Source of the DNA: Patescibacteria group bacterium
Lineage (GTDB): Bacteria > Patescibacteriota > JACPGU01
Direction of reading: 5' to 3'
Length of the DNA: 64,000 nt
Assembly: GCA_028718745.1 (NCBI GenBank)
Contig: JAQULF010000001.1
Coordinates: 111,078-175,077, forward strand
Below the pieces are notes generated by a model. The model had not been told where the DNA came from. It saw only the letters and a program-made list of their open reading frames with translations, and did no database searches. Both the position numbers and the translations under genes were made by a program. Below, one piece after another: positions 1 to 62,034 of the stretch (within the stretch, counting starts at the first letter, position 1; each line of letters starts with the position of its first letter).

Positions 1-1448
1 TCAATCACTGTTTCAGCCGGATCAATTCGAACAACCTTGGCTTCAAATTTTACATCAGAACCATAAGCGTCCAGTGTGATCTCGGCTGAATTATCTATCT
101 TAATTTTGGAAATATCGGCTTCCGGTATATTAGCCTCCACGCCAAACTTCGCCTCGGTCATTACCGAGATAGCCGGCGCAGTCGCTCCTGCCATTTCTCC
201 CACTTTAATCTCTACTTTTGTTACTACGCCATTTACGGTCGAAGTAATAATTGATTTGGAATATTGAGCCGATGCTAATCCGAGCGATGCTTGCGCGCTT
301 CGGACTTGGGCTTGAGCGGAGGCAAGAGATGCTTCGGCTTGTTTGACAGCCGCTTCTTGGATTTGAACAGCTTCAGTAGTCGCGCCGGCTTTTTTGAGAT
401 TTAATTCTTGTTCAGCCAGAGAAACGGCGTTTTGCGCATTATTTATCAGGTTTTGGTTTGTTGAAGCTAAAGAATTTAGAGAACTTATTTTATTTGAAAT
501 TAAAGAAATTTGAGAATTAATCATCGATCTCTCGGTTGTAATTCCGGCTTTTTCGCTTGCAGAGAGAGACGCACTATTAAATGGAATAGCATCCAGAGTT
601 TGGCTGATTTTCATTAAAGCGCTGCTGGTATCACTAAGAGCCTTAACAACATTGGCTTCGGTTGGATTATTTTGCGCCGTGATAACCGAACCTCGGGCGC
701 CGCCTTTCATATCATTGATGTATTGAAAAATCCATCTTCCGCCATCTACCCCGCCAACCAGAGAATTTACCGCCGCCACTTTGCTTTCAGTTAAAGCATT
801 TGATTCTTGGTCATAGGCAACAAAGTGCGCATATTGAATGTCGGTGATCACATTAAGAGTATTAAGTCCCGAACTTATCGCGCTGCTGGCGCTATTGGCT
901 CCGTCAACCAAAGCTTGGGTGGTATCTGTTACTACCTTTGATTTTGTGCTTTCCAAGGCTTGTTTTGCATTATCTAGCTGCAATTGAGCCATTGCCAATT
1001 CTTCCGGTCGGGCGCCTTTTTTTAATTCTTCCAGTCGCGCTTTTTGTGATGCAACTCCCGCTTCATATTGCGCCACAGCTGATCTGGCTGAATCAACCCC
1101 TGCTGAAGCTTGAGCTACCGAAGAAGACATATCATTGTTTTTCAATAACGCCAAAGTTTGGCCGGATTTTACTTTGTCGCCAACTTTTACTTTAACGGAC
1201 GCCACTTTTCCGCCCATTTCAAAAGCGTAATCAAGCCCTTCGGCCGGTTTTACTTTTCCGGTCGCGGTTACTTCTTGTTCCACATTTCCTTTGGTAACAA
1301 TGAAGTATTCAAAATTCGGTTTTTGGTTTTTGGCGCTAACAATCTTGCCCCCGATTAAAAGGATAATAACTAACGCAAGAGTAGAGAGAACTACTAGTTT
1401 CTTTCTTTTTTTAATAAATTCTTTGAGATTTGAAAATTTGATTTTCAT
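1..1448 (-). CDS. HlyD-family membrane-fusion / efflux periplasmic adaptor protein, 3' (C-terminal) part runs off window start; ATG complement at 1446-1448
   Basis: Manual reverse-complement translation gives MKIKFSNLKEFIKKRKKLVVLSTLALVIILLIGG... (N-terminal TM helix, then long Ala/Gln-rich coiled coil and beta-barrel-like C-terminus EIKVGEMAGATAPAISVMTEAKF..VEANIPEADISKI), typical of the HlyD/MFP family. Not in the ORF track because it is truncated by the window edge. Confidence 0.6.
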   Translation of the reverse strand, partial: MKIKFSNLKEFIKKRKKLVVLSTLALVIILLIGGKIVSAKNQKPNFEYFIVTKGNVEQEVTATGKVKPAEGLDYAFEMGGKVASVKVKVGDKVKSGQTLALLKNNDMSSSVAQASAGVDSARSAVAQYEAGVASQKARLEELKKGARPEELAMAQLQLDNAKQALESTKSKVVTDTTQALVDGANSASSAISSGLNTLNVITDIQYAHFVAYDQESNALTESKVAAVNSLVGGVDGGRWIFQYINDMKGGARGSVITAQNNPTEANVVKALSDTSSALMKISQTLDAIPFNSASLSASEKAGITTERSMINSQISLISNKISSLNSLASTNQNLINNAQNAVSLAEQELNLKKAGATTEAVQIQEAAVKQAEASLASAQAQVRSAQASLGLASAQYSKSIITSTVNGVVTKVEIKVGEMAGATAPAISVMTEAKFGVEANIPEADISKIKIDNSAEITLDAYGSDVKFEAKVVRIDPAETVI

Positions 1449-1545
1449 AGTTGAATGATTTAATGATTAAATGATTATATGTTTAAATGCTTAGATGATT
1501 ATATCCCTAAATCTGTTATTTGTCAATAAGTTAGTTATTTTAGCC

Positions 1546-3106: not shown

Positions 3107-3580
3107 ATGGTAAAAAAACAACCCAAAATCAATATTGAAGAAATTTTACAAGAGCGCGACGCCAACCTCGCCGGTTGGAAACGATCGTTAGCCGACTTTG
3201 AAAATTTCAAGAAACAATTTGAGAAAGAAAAAGAAACCCTTATTCATTACATGAAAGCTGACGCGATATCAAAACTTTTACCCATCATGGCAAATTGGGA
3301 AGTCGCAATGAAAAACATTCCGGAAGACCAAAAAGACAGCGAATGGATCAAAGGAATCATGGCAATCAAAAACCAATTAGACGAATTCTTTCAAAAAGAA
3401 GGTTTAGAAAAAGTAAAAACAGTCGGCGAGAAATTCAATCCCAATATCCACGAAGCGATGCTGGAAGAAGAATCCGACCAACCCGACGGCACAATCCTTG
3501 AAGAATTCGAACCTGGATATCGGATCGGAGAAAGAGTTATCAAATATCCGAAAGTGAAAGTTAGCAAAAGGAGGAATTAA
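3107..3580 (+). CDS. grpE: nucleotide exchange factor GrpE
   Basis: Coiled-coil N-terminus plus C-terminal beta domain (…HEAMLEEESDQPDGTILEEFEPGYRIGERVIKYPKVKVS); position between hrcA and dnaK. Confidence 0.9.
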   Translation: MVKKQPKINIEEILQERDANLAGWKRSLADFENFKKQFEKEKETLIHYMKADAISKLLPIMANWEVAMKNIPEDQKDSEWIKGIMAIKNQLDEFFQKEGLEKVKTVGEKFNPNIHEAMLEEESDQPDGTILEEFEPGYRIGERVIKYPKVKVSKRRN

Positions 3581-3585
3581 GAATC

Positions 3586-3879
3586 ATGAATTATGAATCA
3601 AGAAGTAACAAAATATTTGCAGATGCATTGGGAGTATATAGCGAAGGTATAAAATGGATTGTTCTGCCAGCATTCATGACCGGAACCATGTTGCTTTCAG
3701 CCGGATGCGACTCAAATCAAAAAAGTTGTTTTGCGTTACCAACAAATAATCCATTACCAATAATCCGAATAATAGATCAGCCAAGTAGTGGTTTAGCATC
3801 AGAAACACAATACCCAATATTTGTAGCAGTAAATAATTCAGCCACGACCACTTCTTCTGGTTCAATATCAATAAAATAA
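3586..3879 (+). CDS. hypothetical small lipoprotein (possible lipobox LLSAGC)
   Basis: 97-aa ORF immediately after grpE with RBS aaggagg; hydrophobic N-terminus followed by Cys. Confidence 0.3.
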   Translation: MNYESRSNKIFADALGVYSEGIKWIVLPAFMTGTMLLSAGCDSNQKSCFALPTNNPLPIIRIIDQPSSGLASETQYPIFVAVNNSATTTSSGSISIK

Positions 3880-10043: not shown

Positions 10044-11408
10044 ATGAAGATTAAATTCATGGGTAGCACCAATCGTGTTACCGGCTCCTGTTTTTTATTT
10101 GAAGCCGAGGGCAAAAAGATATTAATCGACTGCGGTCTTTTTCAGGGAGACGCGGCAAGTCGTGGTAAAAACCACGAGCCCTTTGCTTTTGATGCCAAAC
10201 AAATTGATGCGGTGATTGCCACCCATTCTCATATTGATCACATCGGCCGAATTCCTAAGCTTTTTCGTTTTGGATTTGCCGGCAAGGTTTATTCAACCAA
10301 CCCCACTTATGACTTGGCCGAGATATTTTTGGAAGATACTTTGAAACTGATGAAAGGAGAAGTAAGAAGAAGGCCCGAGCATAAACTTATTTGGGATGAA
10401 GTTGATTTGAATAATGCGCTCAACTCGTGGGAAAGATTTGATTATCATCAACCCTTTGAAATTGGAAATGTTAAAATAGAATTTCTGGATGCGGGACATA
10501 TCTTGGGCTCGGCCATTATTAAAATAAATGCTGAAGGAAAAATAGTGATTTTTTCCGGCGACCTCGGCAATCCGCCTGTACCGATTATTGAAGATACGGA
10601 AACCGTCGTTAAGGCTGATTTCGTAGTTATGGAATCAACTTACGGCGACCGATTTCATGGATCAACCGAAGAAAGAGAAGCGGAATTAAAACAAGCGCTG
10701 GACAATATCTATGACCGACAGGGTGTTCTTTTGATCCCCGCTTTTGCCATGGAAAGAACGCAGGAATTATTGTATGAAATCAACACTCTGGTGGAAGCTC
10801 ATAGAATAGAAAATACCAGCGTTTTTTTGGATAGTCCCTTGGCAATTAAGGCCACTCAAATTTATTACAAATATCAAAATTATTTTGATAAGCCCGCGAG
10901 AGATGTTGTCAAAAGCGGAGACGATATCTTTGACTTCCGCGGACTGACTATAACCAGAACCGGGGAACAATCCCGAGAGATTTTCCGAGCCAAAAAACCC
11001 AAAGTAATTATTGCCGGTTCGGGCATGAGTACCGGAGGCCGGATTCTGGGCCATGAATTAAACTATCTGGACGATCCCAATAATATGATCCTTTTTATCG
11101 GATATCAGGTTCGAGGAACGCTGGGACGAAAAATTAAGGACGGAGAAAAGTTGGTTAGAATAATGGGACAAGAAGTGCAAGTGAATGCTGAAGTGAGAGA
11201 AATCACCGGTTATTCCGCCCACGCCGATCAGCCCAAACTTATCAACTGGTTAAAGAGGATGTGCGATATCGAAGCCGAAAAGCCTAAAAAAGTTTTTCTA
11301 ATTCACGGGGAACCGGAAGTTGAACAAATTCTGGATGAAAAAATAAAAGCTGATTTGAAGCTCAATGTGGTGGTGCCGGAAGAGAATGAGGAATTCGTAT
11401 TAGGATAG
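10044..11408 (+). CDS. MBL-fold metallo-hydrolase of the beta-CASP family (RNase J / CPSF-like ribonuclease)
   Basis: HSHIDH (HxHxDH) motif, downstream GHILGSA and ESTYGD motifs; ~450 aa as expected for beta-CASP RNases. Confidence 0.65.
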   Translation: MKIKFMGSTNRVTGSCFLFEAEGKKILIDCGLFQGDAASRGKNHEPFAFDAKQIDAVIATHSHIDHIGRIPKLFRFGFAGKVYSTNPTYDLAEIFLEDTLKLMKGEVRRRPEHKLIWDEVDLNNALNSWERFDYHQPFEIGNVKIEFLDAGHILGSAIIKINAEGKIVIFSGDLGNPPVPIIEDTETVVKADFVVMESTYGDRFHGSTEEREAELKQALDNIYDRQGVLLIPAFAMERTQELLYEINTLVEAHRIENTSVFLDSPLAIKATQIYYKYQNYFDKPARDVVKSGDDIFDFRGLTITRTGEQSREIFRAKKPKVIIAGSGMSTGGRILGHELNYLDDPNNMILFIGYQVRGTLGRKIKDGEKLVRIMGQEVQVNAEVREITGYSAHADQPKLINWLKRMCDIEAEKPKKVFLIHGEPEVEQILDEKIKADLKLNVVVPEENEEFVLG

Positions 11409-11476
11409 GAATAAATGAATAAAGGATCAAATGAATGACCCTTCTAATCATTTATTCATATATTCATTTAATCATT
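11404..11476. repeat. AT-rich ~70-bp hairpin repeat (AATGAATAAAGGAT(T/C)AAATGA ... TCATTTAATCAT arms); near-identical copy at 59846-59920, related copies at 1449-1500, 28724-28745, 29129-29166, 29795-29880
   Basis: gaataaatgaataaaggatcaaatgaatgacccttctaatcatttattcatatattcatttaatcattattt versus gaatatatgaataaaggattaaatgaatagaaattctaatcatttaatcatataatcatttaatcatcac. Confidence 0.6.
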
Positions 11477-11487
11477 ATTTACAAACC

Positions 11488-13749
11488 ATGATTTTTAAAC
11501 TAAAAAAACTCTTTTTTATCCTCTGCTTTTTTTTACTAATCACCCCCCTCTATCCTGCCAGGGCTGCTAATCTATCCCCCAAGGAATCTTTTTTAATTAA
11601 ATCAAATAATCCGGCAGCGACTGAAAAAATGTTCGGTGAATTGGAGATTGCTGATTTTAATAAATTAGAAGCGCTCAATGTTTATGAAGTAGAAACTACG
11701 CAAGAAGAAATAAACATTTTGGCCGAACAGTCCTCTACAATTTTTATAGAAAAAAATAATAAAGTAAAAATTTCCCAATTACCCAATGATCCCTATTATC
11801 AACTGCAAACCTACTTAACTAATTCTAATATCACCAGCGCCTGGGATATTTCCACCGGCTCTCCCAGCATCATCGCTGCCGTTATTGACACCGGGGTGGA
11901 TTACAATCACGAAGATTTGAAAAACAAAATGTGGAAAAATGCTAACGGTTATTTTGGCTATGATTTTGTGAATAGCGACAATGATCCTATGGATGATAAT
12001 CAGCATGGTACCGAGATAGCCGGCATTATCGCCGCCCAAAGCAATAATGGTATCGGAATGGCGGGGATAGCTAATGTTAAAATAATGGCCGTAAAAGCTG
12101 TGCCTTATACCGGAGAAGGAGATGTCATGGATTTAGCTCGGGGCATCACTTACGCAGCGGATAATGGAGCCAGAGTGGCTAATGTCAGCTTAGGTCTGGC
12201 CGAAGACAGCCAAGCATTGGATGACGCTATCACCTATGCCCGATCAAAAAACTGCCTTATTGTCGCTGCTACCGGCAACTTGAACCGAAACTTTATTGAT
12301 AATCCGGCCAGAAACCCCAATGCCGTGGGGGTCGGAGCCATTGATGAATCCGGCAACAAAGCCAGCTATTCAAATTATGGAGAGGGGATTTCTTTGGTAG
12401 CCTTGGGAAATCACATTTATTCGACTTCTTGGAATGAAAATAATGATTTAAATGCTTACCAATATGGCAATGGCACTTCTTTTGCCACACCTCAAGTAAC
12501 CGGTACGGTCGCTTTATTAGCCTCAAAAGATCCTTCTTTAACTTCTGATCAAATTAAAAAAAGATTGGTGGGAAGCGCCAAAAAGATAGCTGCCATGGGA
12601 GGGCTGAATTATATGGTTCAACTGGGCTATGGAAAGTTGGATGCTTATACTGCCCTAACCTACGACAAGTATCCGCCGGAATTAAATCTTAATTTGTATA
12701 AAAATGGGGGCGGAATTTATACTATAAAAGGAACTGTTTCCGATGATAAAAAGACAACCGATGTCTATCCCGATACGCCCGACAGCAATATCGCGCAGGT
12801 TCGATATCAAGTGGATGGCAATGGGGCGTGGACGACCCTAAATAATAATCCAATTCAACTAGTCACTCTTAACTCCAATACTTCTGCGCTTCCCGTTGGT
12901 GATCACGACATTTTAGTGGAAGCTACAGATACTGCCGGGAATAAAGCCAATTTGAATCTTAATACTCGCAATGCCACCCTTCTTCCCGTCGCTATTTCTA
13001 ATAAAATCGCTGACTACTCATATTCTTTTGTCGACCAAAGTCCTTATGTGAATACCACCGCCGGGCAAACTGTCAGTATGAGTTTGGCCGTGAAAAATAC
13101 CGGCGGTTCCGTTTGGGATAAAAATACTGTTCATCTTGGTACGGCTAATTCAAATGATCGGACTAGCATCTTTGCCAACCAGACCTGGCTGTCATCAAAT
13201 CGCATCGCTATGCAGGAAGACTCCGTAGCCGTAGGAGATATTGCCCACTTCAATTTTTCCATAACCGTTCCCGGTGGCGTCGTCGGAGATTTTAGCGAGC
13301 ATTTCAACCTAGTCGCTGACGGCATAGGTTGGATGAATGATGCGGGAATCTTCTGGAAAGTTTCAGTAGGCACACCCTCCTATCACGCGCAATTTGTCGA
13401 TCAAAGCCCTTATCCCGTTATCAATCAAGGAAGTACAATCCCAATGTGGGTTGATTTCAAAAACAGCGGATCGATTTCTTGGGATATCTCGACTGTAAAA
13501 CTTGGCACAAGTAATCCTCTTGATCGCAGCAGCATTTTTTACAATAGCTCTTCAGGCTCCGGCTGGAAATCGGCTAATCGGATAAGTATGGCTAAAAACA
13601 CTGTGGCTCCCGGAGAAACTGTCCGATTCAACTTTACTGCTCATGCCCCAAACACACCTGGCACTTATTATGAATACTTCCGCCCGGTTGCTGATGGGGT
13701 GAAATGGTTGGAAGATATTGGACTTTTTTGGAAGATAACTGTGAACTAG
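11488..13749 (+). CDS. secreted subtilisin-like S8 serine peptidase with two C-terminal ~110-aa beta-sandwich repeat domains
   Basis: Signal peptide MIFKLKKLFFILCFFLLITPLYPARA; catalytic triad motifs AAVIDTGVD (Asp), HGTEIAGIIAA (His), GTSFATPQVTG (Ser). Two C-terminal repeats of FVDQSPY...NTGxxxW...NRIAM...PGE...F.L.ADG.GWM.D.GIFWK. Start moved to ATG 11488 because 11431-11476 is the repeat element. Confidence 0.85.
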   Translation: MIFKLKKLFFILCFFLLITPLYPARAANLSPKESFLIKSNNPAATEKMFGELEIADFNKLEALNVYEVETTQEEINILAEQSSTIFIEKNNKVKISQLPNDPYYQLQTYLTNSNITSAWDISTGSPSIIAAVIDTGVDYNHEDLKNKMWKNANGYFGYDFVNSDNDPMDDNQHGTEIAGIIAAQSNNGIGMAGIANVKIMAVKAVPYTGEGDVMDLARGITYAADNGARVANVSLGLAEDSQALDDAITYARSKNCLIVAATGNLNRNFIDNPARNPNAVGVGAIDESGNKASYSNYGEGISLVALGNHIYSTSWNENNDLNAYQYGNGTSFATPQVTGTVALLASKDPSLTSDQIKKRLVGSAKKIAAMGGLNYMVQLGYGKLDAYTALTYDKYPPELNLNLYKNGGGIYTIKGTVSDDKKTTDVYPDTPDSNIAQVRYQVDGNGAWTTLNNNPIQLVTLNSNTSALPVGDHDILVEATDTAGNKANLNLNTRNATLLPVAISNKIADYSYSFVDQSPYVNTTAGQTVSMSLAVKNTGGSVWDKNTVHLGTANSNDRTSIFANQTWLSSNRIAMQEDSVAVGDIAHFNFSITVPGGVVGDFSEHFNLVADGIGWMNDAGIFWKVSVGTPSYHAQFVDQSPYPVINQGSTIPMWVDFKNSGSISWDISTVKLGTSNPLDRSSIFYNSSSGSGWKSANRISMAKNTVAPGETVRFNFTAHAPNTPGTYYEYFRPVADGVKWLEDIGLFWKITVN

Positions 13750-28366: not shown

Positions 28367-28385
28367 TTTCAGGAAAATAAAAAAA

Positions 28386-28415
28386 ATATCCTCCGTTCGG
28401 GAGGATATTTTTTTA
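28386..28415. terminator. bidirectional intrinsic terminator (ATATCCTCC-gttcg-GGAGGATAT flanked by A-run and T-run)
   Basis: aaaaaaaATATCCTCCgttcgGGAGGATATttttttt between convergent genes 27971..28366 and rpsT. Confidence 0.75.
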
Positions 28416-28433: not shown

Positions 28434-28703
28434 TTATTTTACTAAACCAGCAATCAACTTCGCCAACTTTGATTTTTTACGAGCAGCGTTATTCTTGTGG
28501 ATAGTTTTTTTCTTAACATTTTTATCGATCGTCTTATAGGCTTTCTGCAACAAATCATTTAATTTTTTCTTATCCGCTTTTTCCGCTACGGCATCCTTGG
28601 TTTCTTTAATAATTTTTTTCATGGCAAGCTTAAAACGAAGATTGTCCTCTCTTCTTTTTGCGGTTTTTTTAACATCTTTTATGGAAGCTTTCAGATTAGG
28701 CAT
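28434..28703 (-). CDS. rpsT: 30S ribosomal protein S20
   Basis: MPNLKASIKDVKKTAKRREDNLRFK…LIHKNNAARKKSKLAKLIAGL matches the S20 pattern. Confidence 0.85.
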   Translation of the reverse strand: MPNLKASIKDVKKTAKRREDNLRFKLAMKKIIKETKDAVAEKADKKKLNDLLQKAYKTIDKNVKKKTIHKNNAARKKSKLAKLIAGLVK

Positions 28704-28742
28704 AGGGGTAAATTATTATTATATGATTAAATGAATAAAGGA

Positions 28743-29132
28743 TTATGATAACATCTTTTTATTAGTAAATTTTATCAACGAATTAACTTCTCTTGGCAAT
28801 TGTTTTAACTGTGAAAAGATAAATAAATATTGTTCTTCCGATAGCAACCCTCTGATTTTTGCTTTTTCATTCCAGTCTAGCGATTCATAAATAGACCCAT
28901 AACTATAATTATAAAATTTAATCTTGTCTTTCTTGGTTTTTCTACCAAATCCTTCAGCGATATTAGCTGATATTGAATCAATTGCCCTAATAAACTGTTT
29001 TCCGACTGTATCTTTGGCCAAATAATCCCACTTAATCACTATATTCCAGACATAATTGGAAAGAGGGAGGGCTATTTTATAGGTATTAATATCATTTAAT
29101 TGTAAAAACTTTTTATTTGTATTTTCAATCAT
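28743..29132 (-). CDS. four-helix-bundle protein (TIGR02436-like, 23S rRNA IVS / Avd-like family), flanked by inverted AT-rich repeats
   Basis: …ISANIAEGFGRKTKKDKIKFYNYSYGSIYESL… motif of the four-helix-bundle family; 15-bp inverted repeat ATGAATAAAGGATTA overlaps both its stop (28730-28745) and start (29129-29166) codons. Confidence 0.65.
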   Translation of the reverse strand: MIENTNKKFLQLNDINTYKIALPLSNYVWNIVIKWDYLAKDTVGKQFIRAIDSISANIAEGFGRKTKKDKIKFYNYSYGSIYESLDWNEKAKIRGLLSEEQYLFIFSQLKQLPREVNSLIKFTNKKMLS

Positions 29133-29216
29133 TTATTCATTTAGTCCTTTAATCCTTTATTCATCCTACCACAAAACCCCGTTTCAATCAATCAACTCTT
29201 TCCTACGCTGCGTATT

Positions 29217-29786
29217 TTATCTTCTGTACACATACATTTTTTCAAACCCCGGATCTTTTTTTATCATCAAAGTCTCTTGAGTGAATTGCGGTTGCCAACC
29301 TGGCACAGGGAAAGTACTAACAATAATGATTGCTCCCTGCCTCAATTCTTTCTCAAGTTTGTTCTTCAGCTTTTCCATCGTTTCCGGCCAGGTATAAATA
29401 TAGACAATGTCTGCCCGACTAAGATCTACATCAAAAATATTTTTTCTGGCAAAAATTACTTTTTGTCTGACAAAAGAAGATCTGGCTCTAGAAAAATATA
29501 TTTTAAACGGACTACGATCAAAACCATAGACTTGGAAATCGGGAAAAAACTTTTTAATTCTGATAGCAAAAGCCCCGCGTCCGGAGCCAAGATCAAAGAA
29601 GGTTGCTTTTTTTAAGTCTAATTTTTCTAAAATCTCTTTAACTTTTTGAGTAGCTTTCTTACTCGAAGAAACATCAATATATTTTATATGGATATTGGTA
29701 AGGATGGAATCAAGAATAAAAACAGAATATAGAAAAGAAATAAAGATGATTAAAAGAGCGGTAAATATGACTGAATATTGGGTCAT
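29217..29786 (-). CDS. class I SAM-dependent methyltransferase with N-terminal TM helix
   Basis: FFDLGSGRGAFAI glycine-rich SAM-binding motif; exact specificity (e.g. RsmG-like) not determinable. Confidence 0.55.
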   Translation of the reverse strand: MTQYSVIFTALLIIFISFLYSVFILDSILTNIHIKYIDVSSSKKATQKVKEILEKLDLKKATFFDLGSGRGAFAIRIKKFFPDFQVYGFDRSPFKIYFSRARSSFVRQKVIFARKNIFDVDLSRADIVYIYTWPETMEKLKNKLEKELRQGAIIIVSTFPVPGWQPQFTQETLMIKKDPGFEKMYVYRR

Positions 29787-29794
29787 TGCTTATA

Positions 29795-29880
29795 AATAAT
29801 GAATTAATGATTAAAGGATTAAATGATTAAAAAGCGCCCCTATAGTCCTTTATTCATTTAATCATTTATTCATGAGAACT
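29795..29880. repeat. AT-rich palindromic repeat element (arms ATGAATTAATGATTAAAGGATTAAATGATT / AGTCCTTTATTCATTTAATCATTTATTCAT), same family as 11404 and 59846
   Basis: Inverted arms around loop aaaaagcgcccctatag. Confidence 0.55.
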
Positions 29881-31753: not shown

Positions 31754-32833
31754 CTAACTGCTACGACCCTTTTTGTCAATTAAATCTGATAACTCTTTTG
31801 TTAATTTCCAGCCCTCACAGTGTTTTAAAACCCCAAAATAAGACTGTCGAATTTGCTCAAATGATTCTTGGCTAATAACTTTTTGATCTAATAGTCTCTT
31901 TTTTGCTCTCAACTTCTTAAACATTCTTTTCTTGGTCTTCGTTCGGAGAATTTTGTGATACGGAAAAACCACATATCCCAAAAAATCAATTCCTTGATTT
32001 GGTTTGCGGATAATGGTTTTGTCAGGATGTAATTGCAACTTAAGGTTGTCTTTTATAAAATCGCCGACCGCATCCTGTAGGGAACAGCCATGGCTGTTCC
32101 CTACCGAATACAATATCACAAAATCATCACAATACCGGGCATACGATTTAACCTTTAAGCGATGTTTTACAAACTGATCTAATTCGTTCAAGTAGATATT
32201 GGCAAAAAGTTGCGAGGTAAGATTGCCCAGCGGAATCCCCGTACTCTCTCTCTCTCTCTCGTTTTGTTTTGTGTTAAACGAATCGATTGTTTCTTTAACT
32301 AACCACAAAACATTCTCATCTTTGATTTTCTTTTTAATTAAATCAAACAATATCTCATGGTCAACGGACGCGAAAAATTTTTTGATGTCTAATTTAATGA
32401 TGACACGATAATATTTTACTTCCCCTGTAGAGACACGCCATGGCGTGTCTCTACGAAGAAAACTCTGCAATCGATCTACTGCCTTATGTGTTCCTTTTTC
32501 GTTTCTGCAGGAATATGAATCATGGATAAATGTTTTGTCGAAGATAGGATAGAGGATTCTATAAATAGCGTGATGAACTATGCGATCTTTCACAGTAGCT
32601 TTGTGAATGTGCCGTCTTTTTGGATCATTGATAAAAAATGAGGTATAATGGCTATGCTTATAGGTTTTAGATTTAAGCTCCTCGTGAAGATTAAAGAGAT
32701 TATCTTCAAGATGTAGCTCAAATTCTTGGACATCTTTCTTTTTTCTTTTCCCTTTTTTAAATTCATTCCAACTACAAAATAAATTATCAATACTAATAAT
32801 TTGGGAGAATAAATTATCATGGAGAATTTTCAT
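31754..32833 (-). CDS. diversity-generating retroelement (DGR) reverse transcriptase, with two in-frame palindromic element insertions; probable start at Met36 of the track ORF (32831-32833)
   Basis: RT motifs RRHIHKATVKDRIVHHAIYRIL (dom 1-2), YYRVIIKLDIKKFFASVDH (dom 3), GIPLGNLTSQLFANIYLNELD (dom 4, DGR-specific [IVL]GxxxSQ instead of QGxxxSP), YARYCDDFVIL (YxDD); adjacent avd, TR and VR. Confidence 0.85.
   Translation of the reverse strand: MKILHDNLFSQIISIDNLFCSWNEFKKGKRKKKDVQEFELHLEDNLFNLHEELKSKTYKHSHYTSFFINDPKRRHIHKATVKDRIVHHAIYRILYPIFDKTFIHDSYSCRNEKGTHKAVDRLQSFLRRDTPWRVSTGEVKYYRVIIKLDIKKFFASVDHEILFDLIKKKIKDENVLWLVKETIDSFNTKQNERERESTGIPLGNLTSQLFANIYLNELDQFVKHRLKVKSYARYCDDFVILYSVGNSHGCSLQDAVGDFIKDNLKLQLHPDKTIIRKPNQGIDFLGYVVFPYHKILRTKTKKRMFKKLRAKKRLLDQKVISQESFEQIRQSYFGVLKHCEGWKLTKELSDLIDKKGRSS
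32077..32104. repeat. GC-rich palindromic element GTAGGGAACAGCCATGGCTGTTCCCTAC inserted in frame in the RT gene (encodes …VGNSHGCSL…)
   Basis: Perfect 28-bp palindrome; core identical to the comF copy at 14493. Confidence 0.7.
32427..32454. repeat. GC-rich palindromic element GTAGAGACACGCCATGGCGTGTCTCTAC inserted in frame in the RT gene (encodes …DTPWRVSTGE…)
   Basis: Perfect 28-bp palindrome with the same GTAG / CTAC termini and central CCATGG. Confidence 0.7.
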
Positions 32834-33172
32834 AGTCCGTCTATTATTCAGAAGGTTTATGATTTCTATGCTGAACTTTATTTGGTGGTAGAAAAGATGC
32901 CCAAGAAAGACAAATATGCCCTGGGCGAGAAACTGCAAAAAATCACTTTGGATTTTCTGGAATTGCTAATCACTGCCAGCAATAAATCAAAAGATAAAAA
33001 ATATCCCTTCATGGAATTAGCTAGTACAAAGCTTGAAGTTCTGAAAATTACTATCCGACTCTCACATGAAGTTAAAGCGATACCAACGAGCAAATATCAT
33101 TCTCTGGAAGAAAGACTTCAGGAAATTGGTAGGATGCTTGGGGGATGGATAAACTCAATAAAAACACCTTGA
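32819..33172 (+). CDS. avd: DGR accessory variability determinant (Avd), four-helix-bundle protein; encoded divergently to the RT, with start codons overlapping by 15 nt
   Basis: 117 aa; C-terminus EERLQEIGRMLGGWINSIKTP parallels Bordetella phage bAvd …AEVGRILGSWIARVNRK; N-terminal IIQKVYDFYAELYLVVEKMPKKDKYALGEKL parallels bAvd helix 1-2. Confidence 0.7.
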   Translation: MENFHSPSIIQKVYDFYAELYLVVEKMPKKDKYALGEKLQKITLDFLELLITASNKSKDKKYPFMELASTKLEVLKITIRLSHEVKAIPTSKYHSLEERLQEIGRMLGGWINSIKTP

Positions 33173-33203
33173 TTGGTGTTTTTATTTTTTGCTTAGAGAC
33201 TAT

Positions 33204-33310
33204 CTCGACGGCGGCACCGATGTTGTCATTGGCATTCTCGGGATTCCAGTTGTCGTTGACATTGAGGCTGTCGTTGTTGAAGTTGACATTCAGCGGACGC
33301 TCGTCGTAAA
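33204..33310 (-). repeat. DGR template repeat (TR), 107 bp
   Basis: Aligns to VR 33663-33766; all 13 substitutions are TR T (plus strand, = A on the coding minus strand) versus VR A/G/C; one 3-nt in-frame indel. Conceptual translation of TR gives an Asn(AAY)-rich peptide YDERPLNVNFNNDSLNVNDNWNPENANDNIGAAVE versus VR YDERPLHVIFY-DSLDVYDYWHPENAHGLIGAAVE. Confidence 0.85.
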
Positions 33311-33577
33311 GTGCCTTTTTCCATCTATTATCACCACTCCTTGATAAACTCTCAGAGTTGAATTTTATTTGGCGGCACCCCAACGATATGTCGGAGATCC
33401 GCACCAGAAAAAGACACGGAGTTTCTAAGCAATTCTTTCGCGCTCTTCCGATGTCTAATAGATAGACGACCGGAACTCTGGCTACTTGATACTTAGGATT
33501 TCGGCGGCCTGGATTCGTAAACCCAAGCGCTCTACCTAATCTCAAGAACATTTTAGCAGAAATAAGGCAAAAAGAAA

Positions 33578-33604
33578 GGGGCAAACGCTTTCGCGTTTGC
33601 CCCA
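33578..33604 (-). terminator. strong hairpin GGGGCAAACGC-gaaa-GCGTTTGCCCC + T-tract immediately downstream of the VR/target gene (terminator; possibly the DGR homing-associated stem-loop)
   Basis: Minus strand: ...ttcttGGGGCAAACGCgaaaGCGTTTGCCCCtttctttttgcc. Confidence 0.7.
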
Positions 33605-33635
33605 AGAAACCAAGGATTCAAAAGAAATCCGAGAA

Positions 33636-34604
33636 TCAGGCGGCAAGTTCCAGAGGAACTCCCTCGACGGCGGCACCGATGAGGCCATGGGCATTCTCGG
33701 GATGCCAGTAGTCGTAGACATCGAGGCTGTCGTAGAAGATGACATGCAGCGGACGCTCGTCGTAAATGGTGCTGGTGCGAGCCCATGTTGATGTTCTGAA
33801 CTTCCGGTAGTTGATGGCGAGCAGGAGCATCATGAGCGCGTCGGAGGTAACCGAAGAATTTATCAGGCCGTGTTCCTTTGTAACTTTCTGTTGATTTTCC
33901 CAGCGCTTCTTTGTGGTAAAAGCGGGGAAATCAACATAACTGATGCGCCAGCGCTCCGAGTCTGTGGCCGGTACATGCGGCCAGCCCTCAATGCCCTGTT
34001 TGATGAACCAGTTGCTGTAGTCAATGCCCGGGCGTATGATTCCGGGACCGAGACCGTCATGCTGGACTCCGAACCAGTTGTAAAGATTGACCAGCGATGT
34101 CTTATGCCTCGCTACACCGAAAAGCTCCAATTGAAGTACGGGAATGCAGTTCCACTCCGGTCTTTTGCAAAGCTCCACCAGCTTTCGGAGCAGCTCGGGC
34201 GTCCATGCCTCGGGCAGAGGAACTTCGGGAACCCAGCCCTTATCGAGATTCAGCGGATTTTCGCCGTTGGGACCCGTCATCGCTTTCTCCCATTCCGCCG
34301 CGCCGACGACTAGAAGCCCGTCGATTGCTCGGTAAGGCGCGAGCGGATCGAGCAGGTCGTCGAGGTTGATTTCGTCGCGAGTTATCGCTTCGAAAAATCG
34401 GGCGAGAAGATCGGGTTCGATGTCGACGCTATCGGGAAGAAGAACAGCTCTTCCTTTCGTGGTTTTTACAACCCCTGACCTGAAAAATTCCTGGATGGCC
34501 TTTTTGTCTTTGAGGCGTTCGGCCATCTGCGCACAGGTTACCTTACCGTCACGGATTGTGGTCAACAGTTCTATGTCTTGACCGGACGTTATCGGCTTAC
34601 TCAT
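33636..34604 (-). CDS. DGR target (variable) protein; GC-rich ORF whose C-terminal ~35 residues are the variable region, presumably in a C-type-lectin/FGE-like fold
   Basis: C-terminus …TSTIYDERPLHVIFYDSLDVYDYWHPENAHGLIGAAVEGVPLELAA overlaps VR (33663-33766); VR differs from TR only at TR-adenine positions. Confidence 0.8.
   Translation of the reverse strand: MSKPITSGQDIELLTTIRDGKVTCAQMAERLKDKKAIQEFFRSGVVKTTKGRAVLLPDSVDIEPDLLARFFEAITRDEINLDDLLDPLAPYRAIDGLLVVGAAEWEKAMTGPNGENPLNLDKGWVPEVPLPEAWTPELLRKLVELCKRPEWNCIPVLQLELFGVARHKTSLVNLYNWFGVQHDGLGPGIIRPGIDYSNWFIKQGIEGWPHVPATDSERWRISYVDFPAFTTKKRWENQQKVTKEHGLINSSVTSDALMMLLLAINYRKFRTSTWARTSTIYDERPLHVIFYDSLDVYDYWHPENAHGLIGAAVEGVPLELAA
33663..33766 (-). 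repeat. DGR variable repeat (VR), 104 bp, at the 3' end of the target gene
   Basis: See TR; the GC-rich 3' boundary (coding strand …GGGAGTTCCTCTGGAACTTGCCGCC TGA) is the likely IMH. Confidence 0.85.
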
Positions 34605-57886: not shown

Positions 57887-57938
57887 CTTCGTTAGCTTTT
57901 AGCTCCATTCAAGGGTAAATCAAAGATTAAAAATCAAA

Positions 57939-58313
57939 ATGGAAAATGACAAAGAAAAATTTAAAAAGGAATTCAAAAAAAGATTATATAACTTCGTACT
58001 TCGTTTAATAAATTATATCAATAAACTTACAAGGTCGCAGTCGAATGATGTTATAGGAAAACAACTATTAAGAAGCGGCACAAGTATATTAGCAAACTTT
58101 ATAGAAGCAAATTCAGCCAGCAGTAAAAAGGATTTTATAAATTTTTTTAATCACAGTTTAAAGTCTGCAAATGAATCTAAGGTTTGGCTAACATTATTTA
58201 GGGATACAAATAACTCAGGAAAAGAAGAAAATGAGTTTCTAATCAATGAACTTTGTGAAATAGCTAATATTTTAGCTTCAAGCATATTAACCTTAAAGGG
58301 GAAAAAGAAGTAA
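57939..58313 (+). CDS. four-helix-bundle protein (TIGR02436-like / Avd-like family), third member in this window
   Basis: …LLRSGTSILANFIEANSASSKKDFINFFNHSLKSANESKVWLTL… matches the four-helix-bundle family signature. Confidence 0.6.
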   Translation: MENDKEKFKKEFKKRLYNFVLRLINYINKLTRSQSNDVIGKQLLRSGTSILANFIEANSASSKKDFINFFNHSLKSANESKVWLTLFRDTNNSGKEENEFLINELCEIANILASSILTLKGKKK

Positions 58314-58371
58314 TTTTAGATTTTATATATTTCATTTTGATTTTTGATATTTACATTTTAATTTAACTCAT

Positions 58372-59119: not shown

Positions 59120-59845
59120 ATGGCAGACAAAGACACAAAAAAACCAACCGGTTCCACCGTCGAATCCGCTCCTGCGAAAAGAAACTCAACGCAGTCTTAT
59201 CTTGATATTGACCATTTTGAGAGCGGCATTCTGATTATGAAAGATGGAAGCATGAGAATGATTCTGTCCACTTCCGCGATCAATTTCGAATTAAAAGCCG
59301 AGATAGAAAGAAATTCAATTATTTATGCCTATCAAAACTTTTTGAATTCTTTGGAATTTCCCATCCAAATTATTGTTCAGTCCAGGAAACTGGATTTGGA
59401 TGAATATCTGGAAACTTTGAAAAAGAAAATTACCGAAACGACCAACGAACTTCTCAAAGTTCAGATCTCCGACTATGTTGATTTTGTGCAGGGTGTGATT
59501 AATGTTGCCAATATTATGCAAAAGAGATTTTATGTTGTAGTCCCGCATTACCCAAGTAATTTCAAAAAAATCGGAGGTTTAGCCCAGATTTTTTCAGGTA
59601 GCCAGGCGGGCGTAGAAATATCAGATATGGAAGTAGAGACAAAATATCTGATGCAAAAAACCGAAACGGTAGCGTCGGGATTGCAAAGCATCGGAATTCG
59701 CGCCTTGCAGCTAGACACCCAGGAGTTAATTGAGCTTTTCTATGGAGCTTATAATCCCGATCAATCCACTCGTCAGAAATTAATTGATATTTCACAATTA
59801 GAATCGGAAATAATTGAGGCAGCACCGGAAGAAATGGGGATATAG
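59120..59845 (+). CDS. hypothetical T4SS-associated protein resembling the non-ATPase N-terminal domain of VirB4/TraC
   Basis: …LDIDHFESGILIMKDGSMRMILSTSAINFELKAEIERNSIIYAYQNFLNSLEFPIQIIVQSR…FYVVVPHY… parallels the N-terminal domain of the downstream VirB4. Confidence 0.35.
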   Translation: MADKDTKKPTGSTVESAPAKRNSTQSYLDIDHFESGILIMKDGSMRMILSTSAINFELKAEIERNSIIYAYQNFLNSLEFPIQIIVQSRKLDLDEYLETLKKKITETTNELLKVQISDYVDFVQGVINVANIMQKRFYVVVPHYPSNFKKIGGLAQIFSGSQAGVEISDMEVETKYLMQKTETVASGLQSIGIRALQLDTQELIELFYGAYNPDQSTRQKLIDISQLESEIIEAAPEEMGI

Positions 59846-59920
59846 AACAGGAATATATGAATAAAGGATTAAATGAATAGAAATTCTAATCATTTAATCA
59901 TATAATCATTTAATCATCAC
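59846..59920. repeat. AT-rich ~70-bp hairpin repeat, near-identical to 11404-11476
   Basis: gaatatatgaataaaggattaaatgaatagaaattctaatcatttaatcatataatcatttaatcatcac. Confidence 0.6.
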
Positions 59921-59958: not shown

Positions 59959-62034
59959 ATGCCAGATCCACAAGACAAAAAACTAGATAATATCCAGCCC
60001 CCCAAAGGTTCCTACTTTGATTTGACTAACAAAGATGCGGTTCTTCAGCCGGATAAGGCTAAGGATTTGGGCGCTATTACTTCCGGTTTTGGTGTTAAGA
60101 AGGAAATAGGATCAACACCACTAAAAGTAGAGACGAATGGCCATTCGTCTCTACAGGAGAAACCAAAAGAGACTAAATCATCCGGAGGTTTCTTTTCCTT
60201 CGGACCAAAGATGACTAAAGAAGAATTGGAAAAACAAAAAGCCGAGGAAAGAAAAAAATCAGAAGCCATTAAAAGAGAAGAAGAGGCTAAAAAAACTTAT
60301 GAAATGGGGTTGGCTTCTATTCGCGACCTGATCGCCCCTTCTTCAGTACAAATTACGCCAAATTATCTAGTTTTAAACGATCGCTTTGTTCGCACTCTTT
60401 TTATTTTCAATTACCCCCGCTTTATTTTTCCAAACTGGTTATCGCCGCTGATTAATATGGATATGACTCTCGATATCGGCATGTTTATTTATCCCAAGGA
60501 AAATAAAGGCGTTCTCGACACTTTAAGAAAAAGATCGGGGCAAGTGGAGTCGGCTCTCAATATAGAAGCGCAAAAAGGACTGGTTCGAAATCCGGAATTG
60601 GAAACCGCTTTGCAAGACATTGAGGAATTAAGAGAAAGATTGGCCAGAGGAGAAGAGAGATTATTTCAGTTGTCTCTATATATAACTCTTCAAGCTAAGG
60701 ATCTGGACGAGCTGGATCTAGCTACTAAAAAAGTAGAATCAACCCTTGGAGGTTCTTTGATTTATACCAAAAGAGCCGGATTTCAGATGGATCAAGGCTT
60801 TCGCTCCACTCTTCCTTTGGGATCTGACTTTTTGGATATTAGAAGAAATATGAACACAGGTTCGCTTTCCACTACTTTCCCATTTACCTCAATGGATTTA
60901 ACTTCCAATCAGGGAATTATGTACGGTATCAATCGCCATAATAATGGCTTGATTATTTTTGATCGATTTGAATTGGAAAACTATAATTCAGTTGTTTTTG
61001 CTAAGGCCGGTGCCGGCAAGTCATACGCGGTAAAATTAGAAATTTTACGCTATATGATGTTTGGTACAGATATTATAGTGATTGATCCGGAAAATGAATA
61101 TAAAAATCTTTGCAAAGTGGTTGGCGGGTCATATCTATCCATGAGCTTATCTTCAGATGATAGAATCAATCCTTTTGACTTACCGCCGCTTCCCGACGAT
61201 GCTACGCTCGATATGGGTGAAGATAATTTAAGAAGCACTATTATTACTCAAAAGGGTTTAATGAATTTACTTTTGGGGAAACTTGATCCGGAAGAAGATT
61301 CTTTGATTGAAAAGGCATTGCTTAAAGCTTATGAATTGAAAGGGATTACCAACGATCCAGCTACCCAAAAGGCCAACTTTCCCTTGATGGCCGATGTTTA
61401 CAATGCATTATCGGGAATGCCGAACAGCAATTCATTGATGAAAAGAATGGAAAAATATGTAACCGGAACTTTTTCCAGCATATTTAATAAGCCAACTAAC
61501 ATTGATTTAGATAAGGGCTTTGTTGTTTTTAACATTCGCGATCTGGAAACCTCTTTTCGTCCAATTGCCATGTATATGGTGCTGGATTTTATTTGGTCAA
61601 AGATAAGAAAAGAGTTGCGAAAAAGAATGCTTATCGTCGATGAGGCGTGGCTTATGATGGAATATGAAGATGCGGCCAAATTCATCTATTCAATTGCCAA
61701 AAGAGCTAGAAAGTATTATCTAGGACTAACTACTATAACGCAGGATGTGGAAGACTTTTTATCCTCAAAATACGGCCGCGCTATCGTAACCAACTCTTCA
61801 TTGCAATTGCTTCTCAAACAATCTCCGGCCTCAATTGAATCAGTGGGTAAAACTTTTAATCTAACTCAAGGAGAGCGAGCCTTGCTTCTGGAATCCGGTG
61901 TGGGTGAGGGACTTTTCTTTGCCGGTGTCAATCATGTAGCTATCAAAGTTATCGCTTCTTATACGGAGGATCAGATCGTGACTACCTCTCCAAAGCAGAT
62001 TCAGGAGCTTGAAAAAGCGCAGGGAGAGGTATAG
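59959..62034 (+). CDS. virB4: VirB4/TraC/PrgJ-family type IV secretion ATPase with a ~120-aa low-complexity N-terminal extension
   Basis: Walker A FAKAGAGKSYAVKL, Walker B MLIVDEAWLMM, conserved VIDPENEY and N-terminal VirB4 domain (…IAPSSVQITPNYLVLNDRFVRTLFIFNYPRFIFPNWLSPLINMDMTLDI…). Confidence 0.85.
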   Translation: MPDPQDKKLDNIQPPKGSYFDLTNKDAVLQPDKAKDLGAITSGFGVKKEIGSTPLKVETNGHSSLQEKPKETKSSGGFFSFGPKMTKEELEKQKAEERKKSEAIKREEEAKKTYEMGLASIRDLIAPSSVQITPNYLVLNDRFVRTLFIFNYPRFIFPNWLSPLINMDMTLDIGMFIYPKENKGVLDTLRKRSGQVESALNIEAQKGLVRNPELETALQDIEELRERLARGEERLFQLSLYITLQAKDLDELDLATKKVESTLGGSLIYTKRAGFQMDQGFRSTLPLGSDFLDIRRNMNTGSLSTTFPFTSMDLTSNQGIMYGINRHNNGLIIFDRFELENYNSVVFAKAGAGKSYAVKLEILRYMMFGTDIIVIDPENEYKNLCKVVGGSYLSMSLSSDDRINPFDLPPLPDDATLDMGEDNLRSTIITQKGLMNLLLGKLDPEEDSLIEKALLKAYELKGITNDPATQKANFPLMADVYNALSGMPNSNSLMKRMEKYVTGTFSSIFNKPTNIDLDKGFVVFNIRDLETSFRPIAMYMVLDFIWSKIRKELRKRMLIVDEAWLMMEYEDAAKFIYSIAKRARKYYLGLTTITQDVEDFLSSKYGRAIVTNSSLQLLLKQSPASIESVGKTFNLTQGERALLLESGVGEGLFFAGVNHVAIKVIASYTEDQIVTTSPKQIQELEKAQGEV

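What the first reader, a model, noticed from the sequence alone, without database searches (positions are those of the whole stretch)
28700..29880. AT-rich hairpin-forming repeat family (MITE-like); one pair of inverted copies precisely brackets a four-helix-bundle gene
At least six copies of a unit built from AATGAATAAAGGATTAAATGA and its complement occur in intergenic spacers (1449-1500, 11404-11476, 28724-28745, 29129-29166, 29795-29880, 59846-59920). Those at 11404 and 59846 are ~70 bp and near-identical. The 4HB gene 28743..29132 is flanked by a 15-bp perfect inverted repeat (ATGAATAAAGGATTA) that overlaps its stop and start codons, making the gene look like a cassette bounded by the element's arms. 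A full palindromic copy lies 650 bp away. The 11404 copy also created a spurious N-terminal extension of the S8 peptidase ORF in the track.
Basis: seen in the sequence. Interest (0 to 1): 0.5.

Follow-up and report, generated by a model that had tools for sequence, protein, structure and literature searches.

The report
Hairpin-bracketed four-helix-bundle gene cassette family
A small, highly conserved gene of the kind known from insertions in ribosomal RNA sits here between ordinary genes, bracketed by mirror-image runs of an 8-base repeat; the gene-less hairpins nearby are most likely leftovers of such cassettes, as shown directly at one site, and the family is found in very different bacteria.

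Summary
Runs of an 8-nt unit (AATGAWTA/AAAGGATT) and its complement form three ORF-less hairpins (11404-11476, 29797-29875, 59846-59919) and one half array (1450-1500). They also form the two arms around gene 28743..29132(-), a PF05635/TIGR02436 protein with the S23p/Avd fold.

The pattern is general. About 80 relatives of this protein (60-79% identical, from CPR classes and Ignavibacteria) sit in about 48-nt spacers inside operons. They almost always lie in the sense orientation. Upstream are typically about 4 tandem 8-nt units, and downstream are their reverse complements. Unit sequence differs between genomes; the 8-nt period does not.

In a syntenic relative (L214/L215) the MTase|rpsT spacer holds the same arms plus the first 33 nt of this ORF, joined directly to the downstream arm. 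At that site an ORF-less hairpin is therefore an internal-deletion derivative, which is MITE-like.

The same two spacers in four sibling genomes carry three different arm types. Positions also vary within an Ignavibacteria operon. Both facts argue for mobility or replacement.

The closest known element is the 23S rRNA intervening sequence, but this one lies in mRNA spacers. RNA-stem processing and the transfer mechanism are inferred, not shown. I found no published description.

The parts
29127..29168 (-). Upstream (5') arm of the cassette. About 4-5 tandem 8-nt units (GGATGAAT AAAGGATT AAAGGACT AAATGAAT AAATG) run into the start codon.
   Evidence: It pairs with the 3' arm as the closing stem in the MFE and centroid folds of the 461-nt transcript.
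28743..29132 (-). Cargo gene: a 129-aa four-helix-bundle protein (PF05635 23S_rRNA_IVP, TIGR02436) carrying the family motif G-x4-R-x3-S-x3-N-x2-E.
   Evidence: Pfam E 7.7e-20 and TIGR02436 E 2.5e-21. AF2 model has pLDDT 85 with four helices. Foldseek top hits are 2GSC and 2RLD, then bAvd 4DWL/8UB7. There are 38 invariant columns across 24 homologues from several phyla.
28716..28745 (-). Downstream (3') arm: reverse-complement units (TAATCCTTTATTCATTTAATCATATAA) that begin with the stop codon.
29797..29875 (.). ORF-less hairpin in the yidC|methyltransferase spacer, with 4 + 3-4 units and a 23-nt loop.
   Evidence: An orthologous hairpin sits in the same spacer of L214/L215.
11404..11476 (.). 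ORF-less hairpin between the beta-CASP RNase gene (10044..11408) and the S8 peptidase gene.
59846..59919 (.). ORF-less hairpin between gene 59120..59845 and the VirB4-like ATPase gene (59959..62034).
1450..1500 (+). One-sided array of about 6 degenerate 8-nt units with no inverted partner. It is probably a remnant.
57917..58352 (+). Second, divergent PF05635 cassette: gene 57939..58313 with its own inverted arms (AAATCAAAGATTAAAAATCAAAATG / CATTTTGATTTTTGATATTT), located in a type-IV-secretion-like operon.

Best explanation
The region holds a member, and several gene-less relics, of a widespread family of selfish gene cassettes. These cassettes resemble the intervening sequence (IVS) of 23S rRNA.

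Anatomy. A full element is a promoterless PF05635 four-helix-bundle gene bracketed by inverted arrays. About four tandem 8-nt units lie upstream and run up to or near the ATG. Their reverse complements lie downstream and start at or near the stop codon. The element sits in the sense orientation inside the short spacer between two co-transcribed host genes.

Shown here:
- the architecture and its generality across about 80 loci;
- strong conservation of the protein;
- the sense-orientation bias;
- presence/absence and position differences between related genomes;
- different element lineages occupying the same spacers in sibling genomes;
- an ORF-less hairpin generated by internal deletion of the ORF.

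Inferred:
- On read-through transcription the two arms pair into a roughly 22-30 bp imperfect stem that loops out the ORF. As in rRNA IVSs, this stem would be a substrate for RNase III or would otherwise insulate the flanking cistrons, making the insertion tolerable.
- ORF-less hairpins persist because the arms now supply the junction sequences of the flanking genes (stop and start regions).
- Spread happens by horizontal transfer plus replacement or conversion at existing hairpin sites. The pentameric, Avd-like protein might take part by binding the periodic arms.

The enzyme that moves the element is unknown.
For: Architecture in the window.

Protein family and fold.

Distribution:
- More than 2800 homologues at about 60-79% identity. 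Sources name them as Ignavibacterium/Ignavibacteriales, Curtissbacteria, Parcubacteria, Andersenbacteria, Pacebacteria and Minisyncoccia.

Flank statistics in 82 non-redundant loci:
- Lag-8 and lag-16 autocorrelation is 0.50-0.55 against 0.28 in controls.
- Inverted complementarity reaches a score of at least 12 in 60/82 loci against 0/82 shuffles.
- The upstream arm most often has 4 units.
- Neighbouring genes are co-directional in 60/63 cases upstream and 64/68 downstream, with median spacers of about 48 nt.

Variable position in the Ignavibacteria icd-cstA-HD-acn operon:
- L117 has icd|4HB|cstA, where L123 has a 53-nt repeat-free spacer.
- L117 has an ORF-less hairpin in cstA|HD, where L123 has a 12-nt spacer.

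Decay:
- A decaying copy, 79 aa long and still between its arms, is in L207.
- Deletion derivative: the L214/L215 MTase|rpsT spacer is the upstream arm (two units shorter), then 33/33 nt of the window ORF's 5' end, then the downstream arm.

Same spacers, different elements:
- The yidC|MTase and MTase|rpsT spacers carry ATGAWT-type arms in the window and L214, ATTGYT-type in L212/L213, and a third type in L210.
- The window protein is closer to Ignavibacteria copies (72-74%) than to the L212 copy at the same site (64%).
- Host genes of these genomes are only 71-83% identical at the nucleotide level.

Other PF05635 subfamilies also carry inverted arms with about 8-nt periodic units of different sequence.

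IVS precedent: the Coxiella IVS has a 28-bp terminal stem cut by RNase III and tandem heptamer repeats before the S23p ORF (PMC4990558).
Against: There is no direct evidence for RNA processing.
- Non-Watson-Crick positions in the arms show no bias toward G:U on the sense strand (62 G:U against 59 A:C).
- The order of variant units in one arm is not mirrored in the other beyond chance. Exact pairing therefore does not appear to be under selection. A DNA-level role, or a role as binding-site arrays, fits equally well.

No nuclease, transposase or recombinase is encoded in the cassette, and no target-site duplication was recognised.

Only one site gives a clean deletion derivative, and its 33-nt remnant is short. 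The other hairpins could have arisen differently.

Most metagenomic loci carry no taxonomic label. The phylum assignments rest on names that sources attach to some proteins.

The whole-transcript fold is only marginally more stable than shuffles (z -1.67).
Confidence: 0.62

Rival explanations
1. The hairpins are host elements first: operon-internal RNA processing or stability sites, or protein-binding sites, that each genome maintains. PF05635 genes are secondary passengers that insert into their loops.
For: The same two spacers hold hairpins in all four sibling genomes examined. Within a genome, both sites carry the same unit type. ORF-less copies outnumber filled ones in the window (3-4 against 1).
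Against: The L214 hairpin contains 33 nt of the ORF, so at that site the gene came before the gene-less form. In the Ignavibacteria operon the corresponding spacers of relatives are short and repeat-free, so the hairpins are not conserved host features there. The arms abut or overlap the ORF's start and stop codons in most loci, as expected if arms and gene form one unit.
Confidence: 0.17
2. The periodic arms are DNA- or RNA-level binding arrays for the element's own pentameric protein. That protein, possibly together with a reverse transcriptase of the DGR type, mediates copying of the cassette into new or occupied sockets. Hairpin formation is incidental.
For: The 8-nt periodicity is conserved while unit sequence is not, across subfamilies. 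Exact pairing is not preserved. Arm size peaks at 4 units. The fold matches bAvd, which in DGR ribonucleoprotein structures (8UB7 and related entries) accompanies the reverse transcriptase. A complete DGR lies 2.6 kb away in the window.
Against: Unit type does not track the protein tree cleanly: the ATGG type is scattered. In the loci examined, cassettes have no adjacent reverse transcriptase. No binding data exist.
Confidence: 0.15
3. The repeats are ordinary species-specific intrinsic terminators, or chance AT-rich hairpins.
For: They are intergenic and fold as hairpins.
Against: The stems are AT-rich, lack a following T-run and are not called by the terminator scan. A canonical terminator ends the operon at 28380-28414. 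The hairpins lie between co-directional genes inside operons. Their sequence is conserved across genomes at unrelated loci, and the counts are far above shuffles.
Confidence: 0.03
4. The 4HB gene is simply the Avd accessory gene of the neighbouring DGR, and the flanking repeats are unrelated to it.
For: It has the Avd fold. The DGR at 31754-34604 has no Pfam-recognisable Avd of its own.
Against: Five housekeeping genes (rpmH, rnpA, yidD, yidC and the methyltransferase) separate it from the RT. The same subfamily sits in operons with no RT nearby in dozens of loci. Relatives with the same synteny carry the cassette or its relic without a DGR in the locus.
Confidence: 0.03

Closest known systems
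23S rRNA intervening sequences (IVS) carrying an S23p ORF (Leptospira, Coxiella, Xanthomonas-type; PMC4990558)
   Same: Same protein family (PF05635). The ORF lies in the loop of a stem formed by terminal inverted repeats. Short tandem repeats precede the ORF (heptamers in Coxiella). Distribution is sporadic and horizontally transferred, and ORF decay is documented.
   Different: The element here is inserted in spacers between protein-coding genes of operons, not in helix 25 or 45 of 23S rRNA. The arms are arrays of 8-nt units. Gene-less hairpin copies are dispersed in the genome. RNase III excision is untested here.
Avd (accessory variability determinant) of diversity-generating retroelements
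   Same: Four-helix-bundle fold (Foldseek probability 1.0 to 4DWL and 8UB7) and the same Pfam family.
   Different: It is not adjacent to an RT or template repeat. It is bracketed by inverted repeat arrays. Sequence identity to bAvd is only about 10%.
Co-transcribed palindromic MITE-like repeats (Neisseria Correia elements, enterobacterial ERIC/IRU, Rickettsia palindromic elements) - from general knowledge
   Same: Short hairpin-forming intergenic repeats that are transcribed with neighbouring genes. Correia elements are known RNase III substrates. Insertions can extend neighbouring ORFs.
   Different: Those families have no known protein-coding parent of this type. Here a coding parent is identified and one deletion derivative is documented. 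The arms are internally periodic at 8 nt.
Integron gene cassettes and free-standing homing-endonuclease genes of phage operons - from general knowledge
   Same: Promoterless single-gene units inserted in the sense orientation between host genes. Imperfect inverted repeats (attC) border integron cassettes.
   Different: There is no integrase, attI or cassette array, and the cargo has no recognisable nuclease. A small GIY-YIG gene does occupy an analogous spacer in L117.

Membership tests
PF05635 / TIGR02436 four-helix-bundle (S23p) protein family | Significant match to the family profiles above the curated cut-offs | tested here: met
   Pfam 71.5 bits (cut-off 33.8) and TIGR02436 75.9 bits (cut-off 24). 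A profile of homologues hits 2RLD and 2GSC.
PF05635 / TIGR02436 four-helix-bundle (S23p) protein family | Up-down four-helix-bundle fold like Xcc0516 and BT_0352 | tested here: met
   The AF2 model has four helices and pLDDT 85. Foldseek TM-score normalised to the target is 0.77-0.88 against 2GSC and 2RLD chains. The pentameric assembly was not tested.
23S rRNA intervening sequence (IVS) | Inserted within a 23S rRNA gene (helix 25 or 45) | tested here: not met
   Rfam finds no rRNA in the window. The flanking genes are rpsT and a methyltransferase.
23S rRNA intervening sequence (IVS) | Terminal inverted repeats that form a stem enclosing the S23p ORF | tested here: met
   A closing stem of about 22 bp between 29150-29171 and 28724-28745 appears in both the MFE and centroid folds. 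A 15-bp perfect inverted repeat is present.
23S rRNA intervening sequence (IVS) | Excision from the transcript by RNase III | not testable with these tools
DGR accessory protein Avd | Encoded next to the DGR reverse transcriptase and template repeat | tested here: not met
   The RT is at 31754-32938 and the TR at about 33199-33310. The gene lies 2.6 kb away, beyond five housekeeping genes. Relatives' loci lack an RT.
MITE (non-autonomous derivative of a larger element) | Terminal inverted repeats shared with a longer, coding element in the same genome | tested here: met
   The hairpins and the cassette arms use the same units. The same holds in L205, L117 and L209.
MITE (non-autonomous derivative of a larger element) | Origin by internal deletion of the coding element | tested here: met
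   The L214/L215 spacer keeps both arms and the first 33 nt of the ORF. This is shown for one site only.
MITE (non-autonomous derivative of a larger element) | Parent encodes a transposase; insertion makes target-site duplications | tested here: not met
   The cargo is a 4HB protein with no transposase or nuclease domain. No duplication was seen at the filled and empty sites compared, although the flanks were too diverged to align.
Intrinsic (rho-independent) terminator | G+C-rich stem followed by a T-run | tested here: not met
   The hairpins are not called by the scan. The stems are AT-rich with no T-run.

The most novel reading that the evidence does not exclude
PF05635 cassettes are a distinct, previously undescribed class of mobile element. 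It is the general form, and the rRNA IVS is one special case. The class colonises and overwrites hairpin 'sockets' in operon spacers across phyla. The 8-nt periodic arms are the recognition arrays for its own pentameric Avd-like protein. Copying may go through an RNA or hairpin intermediate rather than through any known transposase.
Probability: 0.3. Interest if true: 0.85.

Novelty: new variant of a known kind. Interest (0 to 1): 0.66.

Why it matters
The function of the S23p four-helix-bundle proteins has been an open question since the 1990s, and so has the way rRNA intervening sequences spread.

This locus and its relatives suggest the rRNA IVS is only one habitat of a much larger cassette family that lives inside ordinary operons. 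The family has a defined anatomy: sense orientation, inverted arrays of about four 8-nt units, and gene-less relics.

That makes several questions testable:
- Does the protein bind its arms?
- Are the arms cut by RNase III?
- How is the same spacer re-occupied by different lineages?

It also has practical consequences for annotation:
- Start or stop codons of neighbouring genes can be displaced. An example is the S8 peptidase start at 11431 against 11488.
- PF05635 genes inside cas or other operons may have been read as functional partners when they may be insertions. PMC3936711 is a possible case.

Tried and rejected
- Genome-collection scan with the degenerate pattern ATGAWTAAAKGAWYAAATGAWT. 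Allowing K=T made it match simple (AATGAWTA)n tandem repeats in many phyla. Only 2 of 112 loci (L023, L081) had a PF05635 gene within 8 kb.
- Test for sense-strand RNA selection via G:U against A:C mismatches: no bias (62 against 59).
- Test for mirrored order of variant units between arms: no better than permutations.
- Covariation of unit type with the protein tree. The ATGAWT type is confined to the window and its closest relative L209, but the ATGG type is scattered. Inconclusive.
- Search for the subfamily in viral contigs: none found.
- Search for target-site duplications at the filled and empty sites in Ignavibacteria: the flanks were too diverged.
- Single-sequence PDB search: no hit. 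The profile and fold searches worked.
- Literature searches for the repeat strings, PF05635/TIGR02436, S23p, Avd-like, HEPN and IVS. Nothing describes these cassettes outside rRNA. The 1993 Leptospira IVS paper (PMC47033) is not held.
- The terminator and DGR-Avd readings were both rejected.
- The cluster at 3572-3598 was rejected as a chance RBS/start region.

Full report
**1. Observation**

The window is a low-GC (about 0.39) Patescibacteria-type genome. The gene's product is identical to an NCBI MAG protein on a 209-kb contig.

The reported repeat is real. The 21-mer has 10 matches at up to 3 mismatches, against 0 expected.

The copies fall into these groups:
- Three are complete hairpins: 11404-11476, 29797-29875 and 59846-59919.
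- One is a one-sided array: 1450-1500.
- Two opposed half-arrays bracket gene 28743..29132(-).

The 15-bp perfect inverted repeat is 28731-28745 / 29150-29164. It overlaps the stop codon only. The start codon lies in another unit of the array.

**2. The gene**

It is a PF05635/TIGR02436 four-helix-bundle protein. The AlphaFold model has pLDDT 85. Its best structural matches are Xcc0516 (2GSC) and BT_0352 (2RLD), followed by the DGR protein bAvd (4DWL, 8UB7).

It has more than 2800 homologues at about 60-79% identity. Sources name these as Ignavibacteria and several CPR classes. Across 24 of them, 38 columns are invariant, including the family motif G-x4-R-x3-S-x3-N-x2-E (the motif was noted in PMC3936711). 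Such conservation across phyla, with a patchy distribution, indicates a functional protein that moves horizontally.

**3. The architecture is general**

I fetched about 90 loci encoding relatives. In nearly all of them the gene lies in a short spacer. Tandem 8-nt units (consensus NNATTGYT, sometimes NNATGGYT) precede it, and their reverse complements follow it.

In 82 non-redundant loci:
- Flank autocorrelation peaks at lags 8 and 16 (0.50-0.55 against 0.28 in controls).
- Inverted complementarity reaches a score of at least 12 in 60/82 loci, against 0/82 shuffles.
- The upstream arm most often has 4 units.
- Neighbouring genes are co-directional in 60/63 cases upstream and 64/68 downstream, with median spacers of about 48 nt.

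The window copy and its closest relative L209 use a variant unit, AATGAWTA/AAAGGATT.

Other PF05635 subfamilies in the loci I hold have inverted arms with different units and a similar period of about 8 nt. These are in L168, L136, L182, L023 and L081, plus a second gene in the window at 57939..58313.

**4. Gene-less hairpins are relics of cassettes**

Relatives with the same synteny (rnpA-yidD-yidC-MTase-x-rpsT-pilins) were found through the methyltransferase.

In L214/L215 the MTase|rpsT spacer consists of three pieces:
- the upstream arm, exactly two units shorter;
- the first 33 nt of the window's ORF, 33/33 identical;
- the downstream arm, joined directly.

This is an internal deletion that leaves a hairpin.

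L207 holds a truncated 79-aa copy that is still between its arms. ORF-less hairpins with the unit type of the local cassette also occur in L117, L126, L205 and L209. The window's 29797-29875 hairpin has an orthologue in the same spacer of L214/L215.

**5. Mobility or replacement**

In an Ignavibacteria icd-cstA-HD-acn operon, the cassette sits in different spacers in different genomes. The corresponding spacers elsewhere are short and repeat-free.

In the four sibling CPR genomes, the yidC|MTase and MTase|rpsT spacers carry three different arm types, and each genome is internally uniform. The window protein is closer to Ignavibacteria copies (72-74%) than to the L212 copy at the same site (64%). 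Host genes of these genomes are 71-83% identical at the nucleotide level, yet the dead ORF remnant in L214 is 33/33 identical to the window.

The simplest reading is repeated colonisation or replacement of the same sockets, not vertical descent of one insertion.

**6. How it may work**

The 461-nt transcript folds with the arms as the closing stem. The operon ends at a canonical terminator after rpsT (28380-28414), and the hairpins themselves are not terminator-like.

The analogy is the rRNA IVS. In Coxiella, a 28-bp terminal stem is cut by RNase III and heptamer repeats precede the S23p ORF (PMC4990558). On that basis I infer that arm pairing and processing make the insertion tolerable.

This step is not shown, and two tests failed to support selection on exact RNA pairing. 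The conserved 8-nt period with variable sequence therefore leaves open that the arms are binding arrays for the pentameric protein. No transposase, nuclease or target duplication was found, so the transfer mechanism is unknown.

**7. What it is not**

It is not an rRNA IVS in the strict sense, because there is no rRNA in the window.

It is not the cis Avd of the neighbouring DGR. That DGR comprises RT 31754-32938, TR about 33199-33310 and VR about 33658-33766.

It is not a terminator.

**8. Novelty**

Full-text searches found the IVS literature, DGR Avd papers and incidental mentions of 'four helix bundle protein'. None describes these operon-embedded cassettes, their octamer arms or their hairpin relics. 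The library is incomplete, so prior description cannot be excluded.

I rate it a new variant of a known kind: an IVS-like selfish cassette outside rRNA, with MITE-like derivatives.

Noticed in passing
window 31754-34604: A complete diversity-generating retroelement. RT is 31754-32938(-). The template repeat is about 33199-33310. The variable repeat is about 33658-33766, at the 3' end of target ORF 33636-34604(-). All mismatches fall at template adenines on the gene strand. No Pfam-recognisable Avd lies next to it.
   Followed up: partly
window 32074-32104 and 32424-32454: Two near-perfect palindromes of about 31 nt (CCTGTAGGGAACAGCCATGGCTGTTCCCTAC and a 74%-identical copy) lie inside the reverse-transcriptase ORF. 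They look like in-frame palindromic insertions.
   Followed up: no
window 57917-58352: A second, divergent PF05635 gene (57939..58313) sits in a type-IV-secretion-like operon with its own inverted arms (AAATCAAA-type). In relative L120 the orthologous operon carries a cassette in a different spacer (PrgI|4HB|TraC-like).
   Followed up: partly
window 11431-11490: The longest ORF of the S8 peptidase starts inside the hairpin. An in-frame ATG at 11488 gives a signal-peptide-like start, so the annotated N-terminus is probably 19 codons too long.
   Followed up: partly
L117 5718-6113: A 98-aa GIY-YIG gene occupies the HD|aconitase spacer, where relatives carry the 4HB cassette. It is flanked by a different inverted repeat (…attgcga… / …tcgcaat…), suggesting that several kinds of selfish cassette compete for the same spacers.
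   Followed up: no
L210 3812-4001 and 4570-4843: Both orthologous spacers of this sibling genome hold long ORF-less hairpins of a third unit type (AAATCCCAAATTNCAAGCACCAAATTACAAAC…). One of them is annotated as a 73-aa ORF.
   Followed up: partly
L114 1990-2430; L120 4093-4390: Other non-coding insertions sit in operon spacers: roughly 49-nt tandem repeats between icd and HD (L114), and a roughly 300-nt element with periodic AATTTCCA-type inverted ends and an internal GC-rich palindrome (L120).
   Followed up: no
L002-L113: Pure (AATGATTA)n and (AATGAATA)n arrays of 3-15 units occur in intergenic DNA of many phyla (Bacteroidota, Acidobacteriota, Gammaproteobacteria, archaea). Some are in an inverted arrangement (L003, L033, L058, L111). 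Only L023 and L081 have a PF05635 gene nearby. Their relation to the cassette family is unresolved.
   Followed up: partly
L117 2930-2956: The 3' end of the isocitrate dehydrogenase ORF runs into the upstream arm (…AATTGCTAAATTGTCTAATTGA). The insertion therefore supplies the last codons and the stop of the host gene.
   Followed up: no
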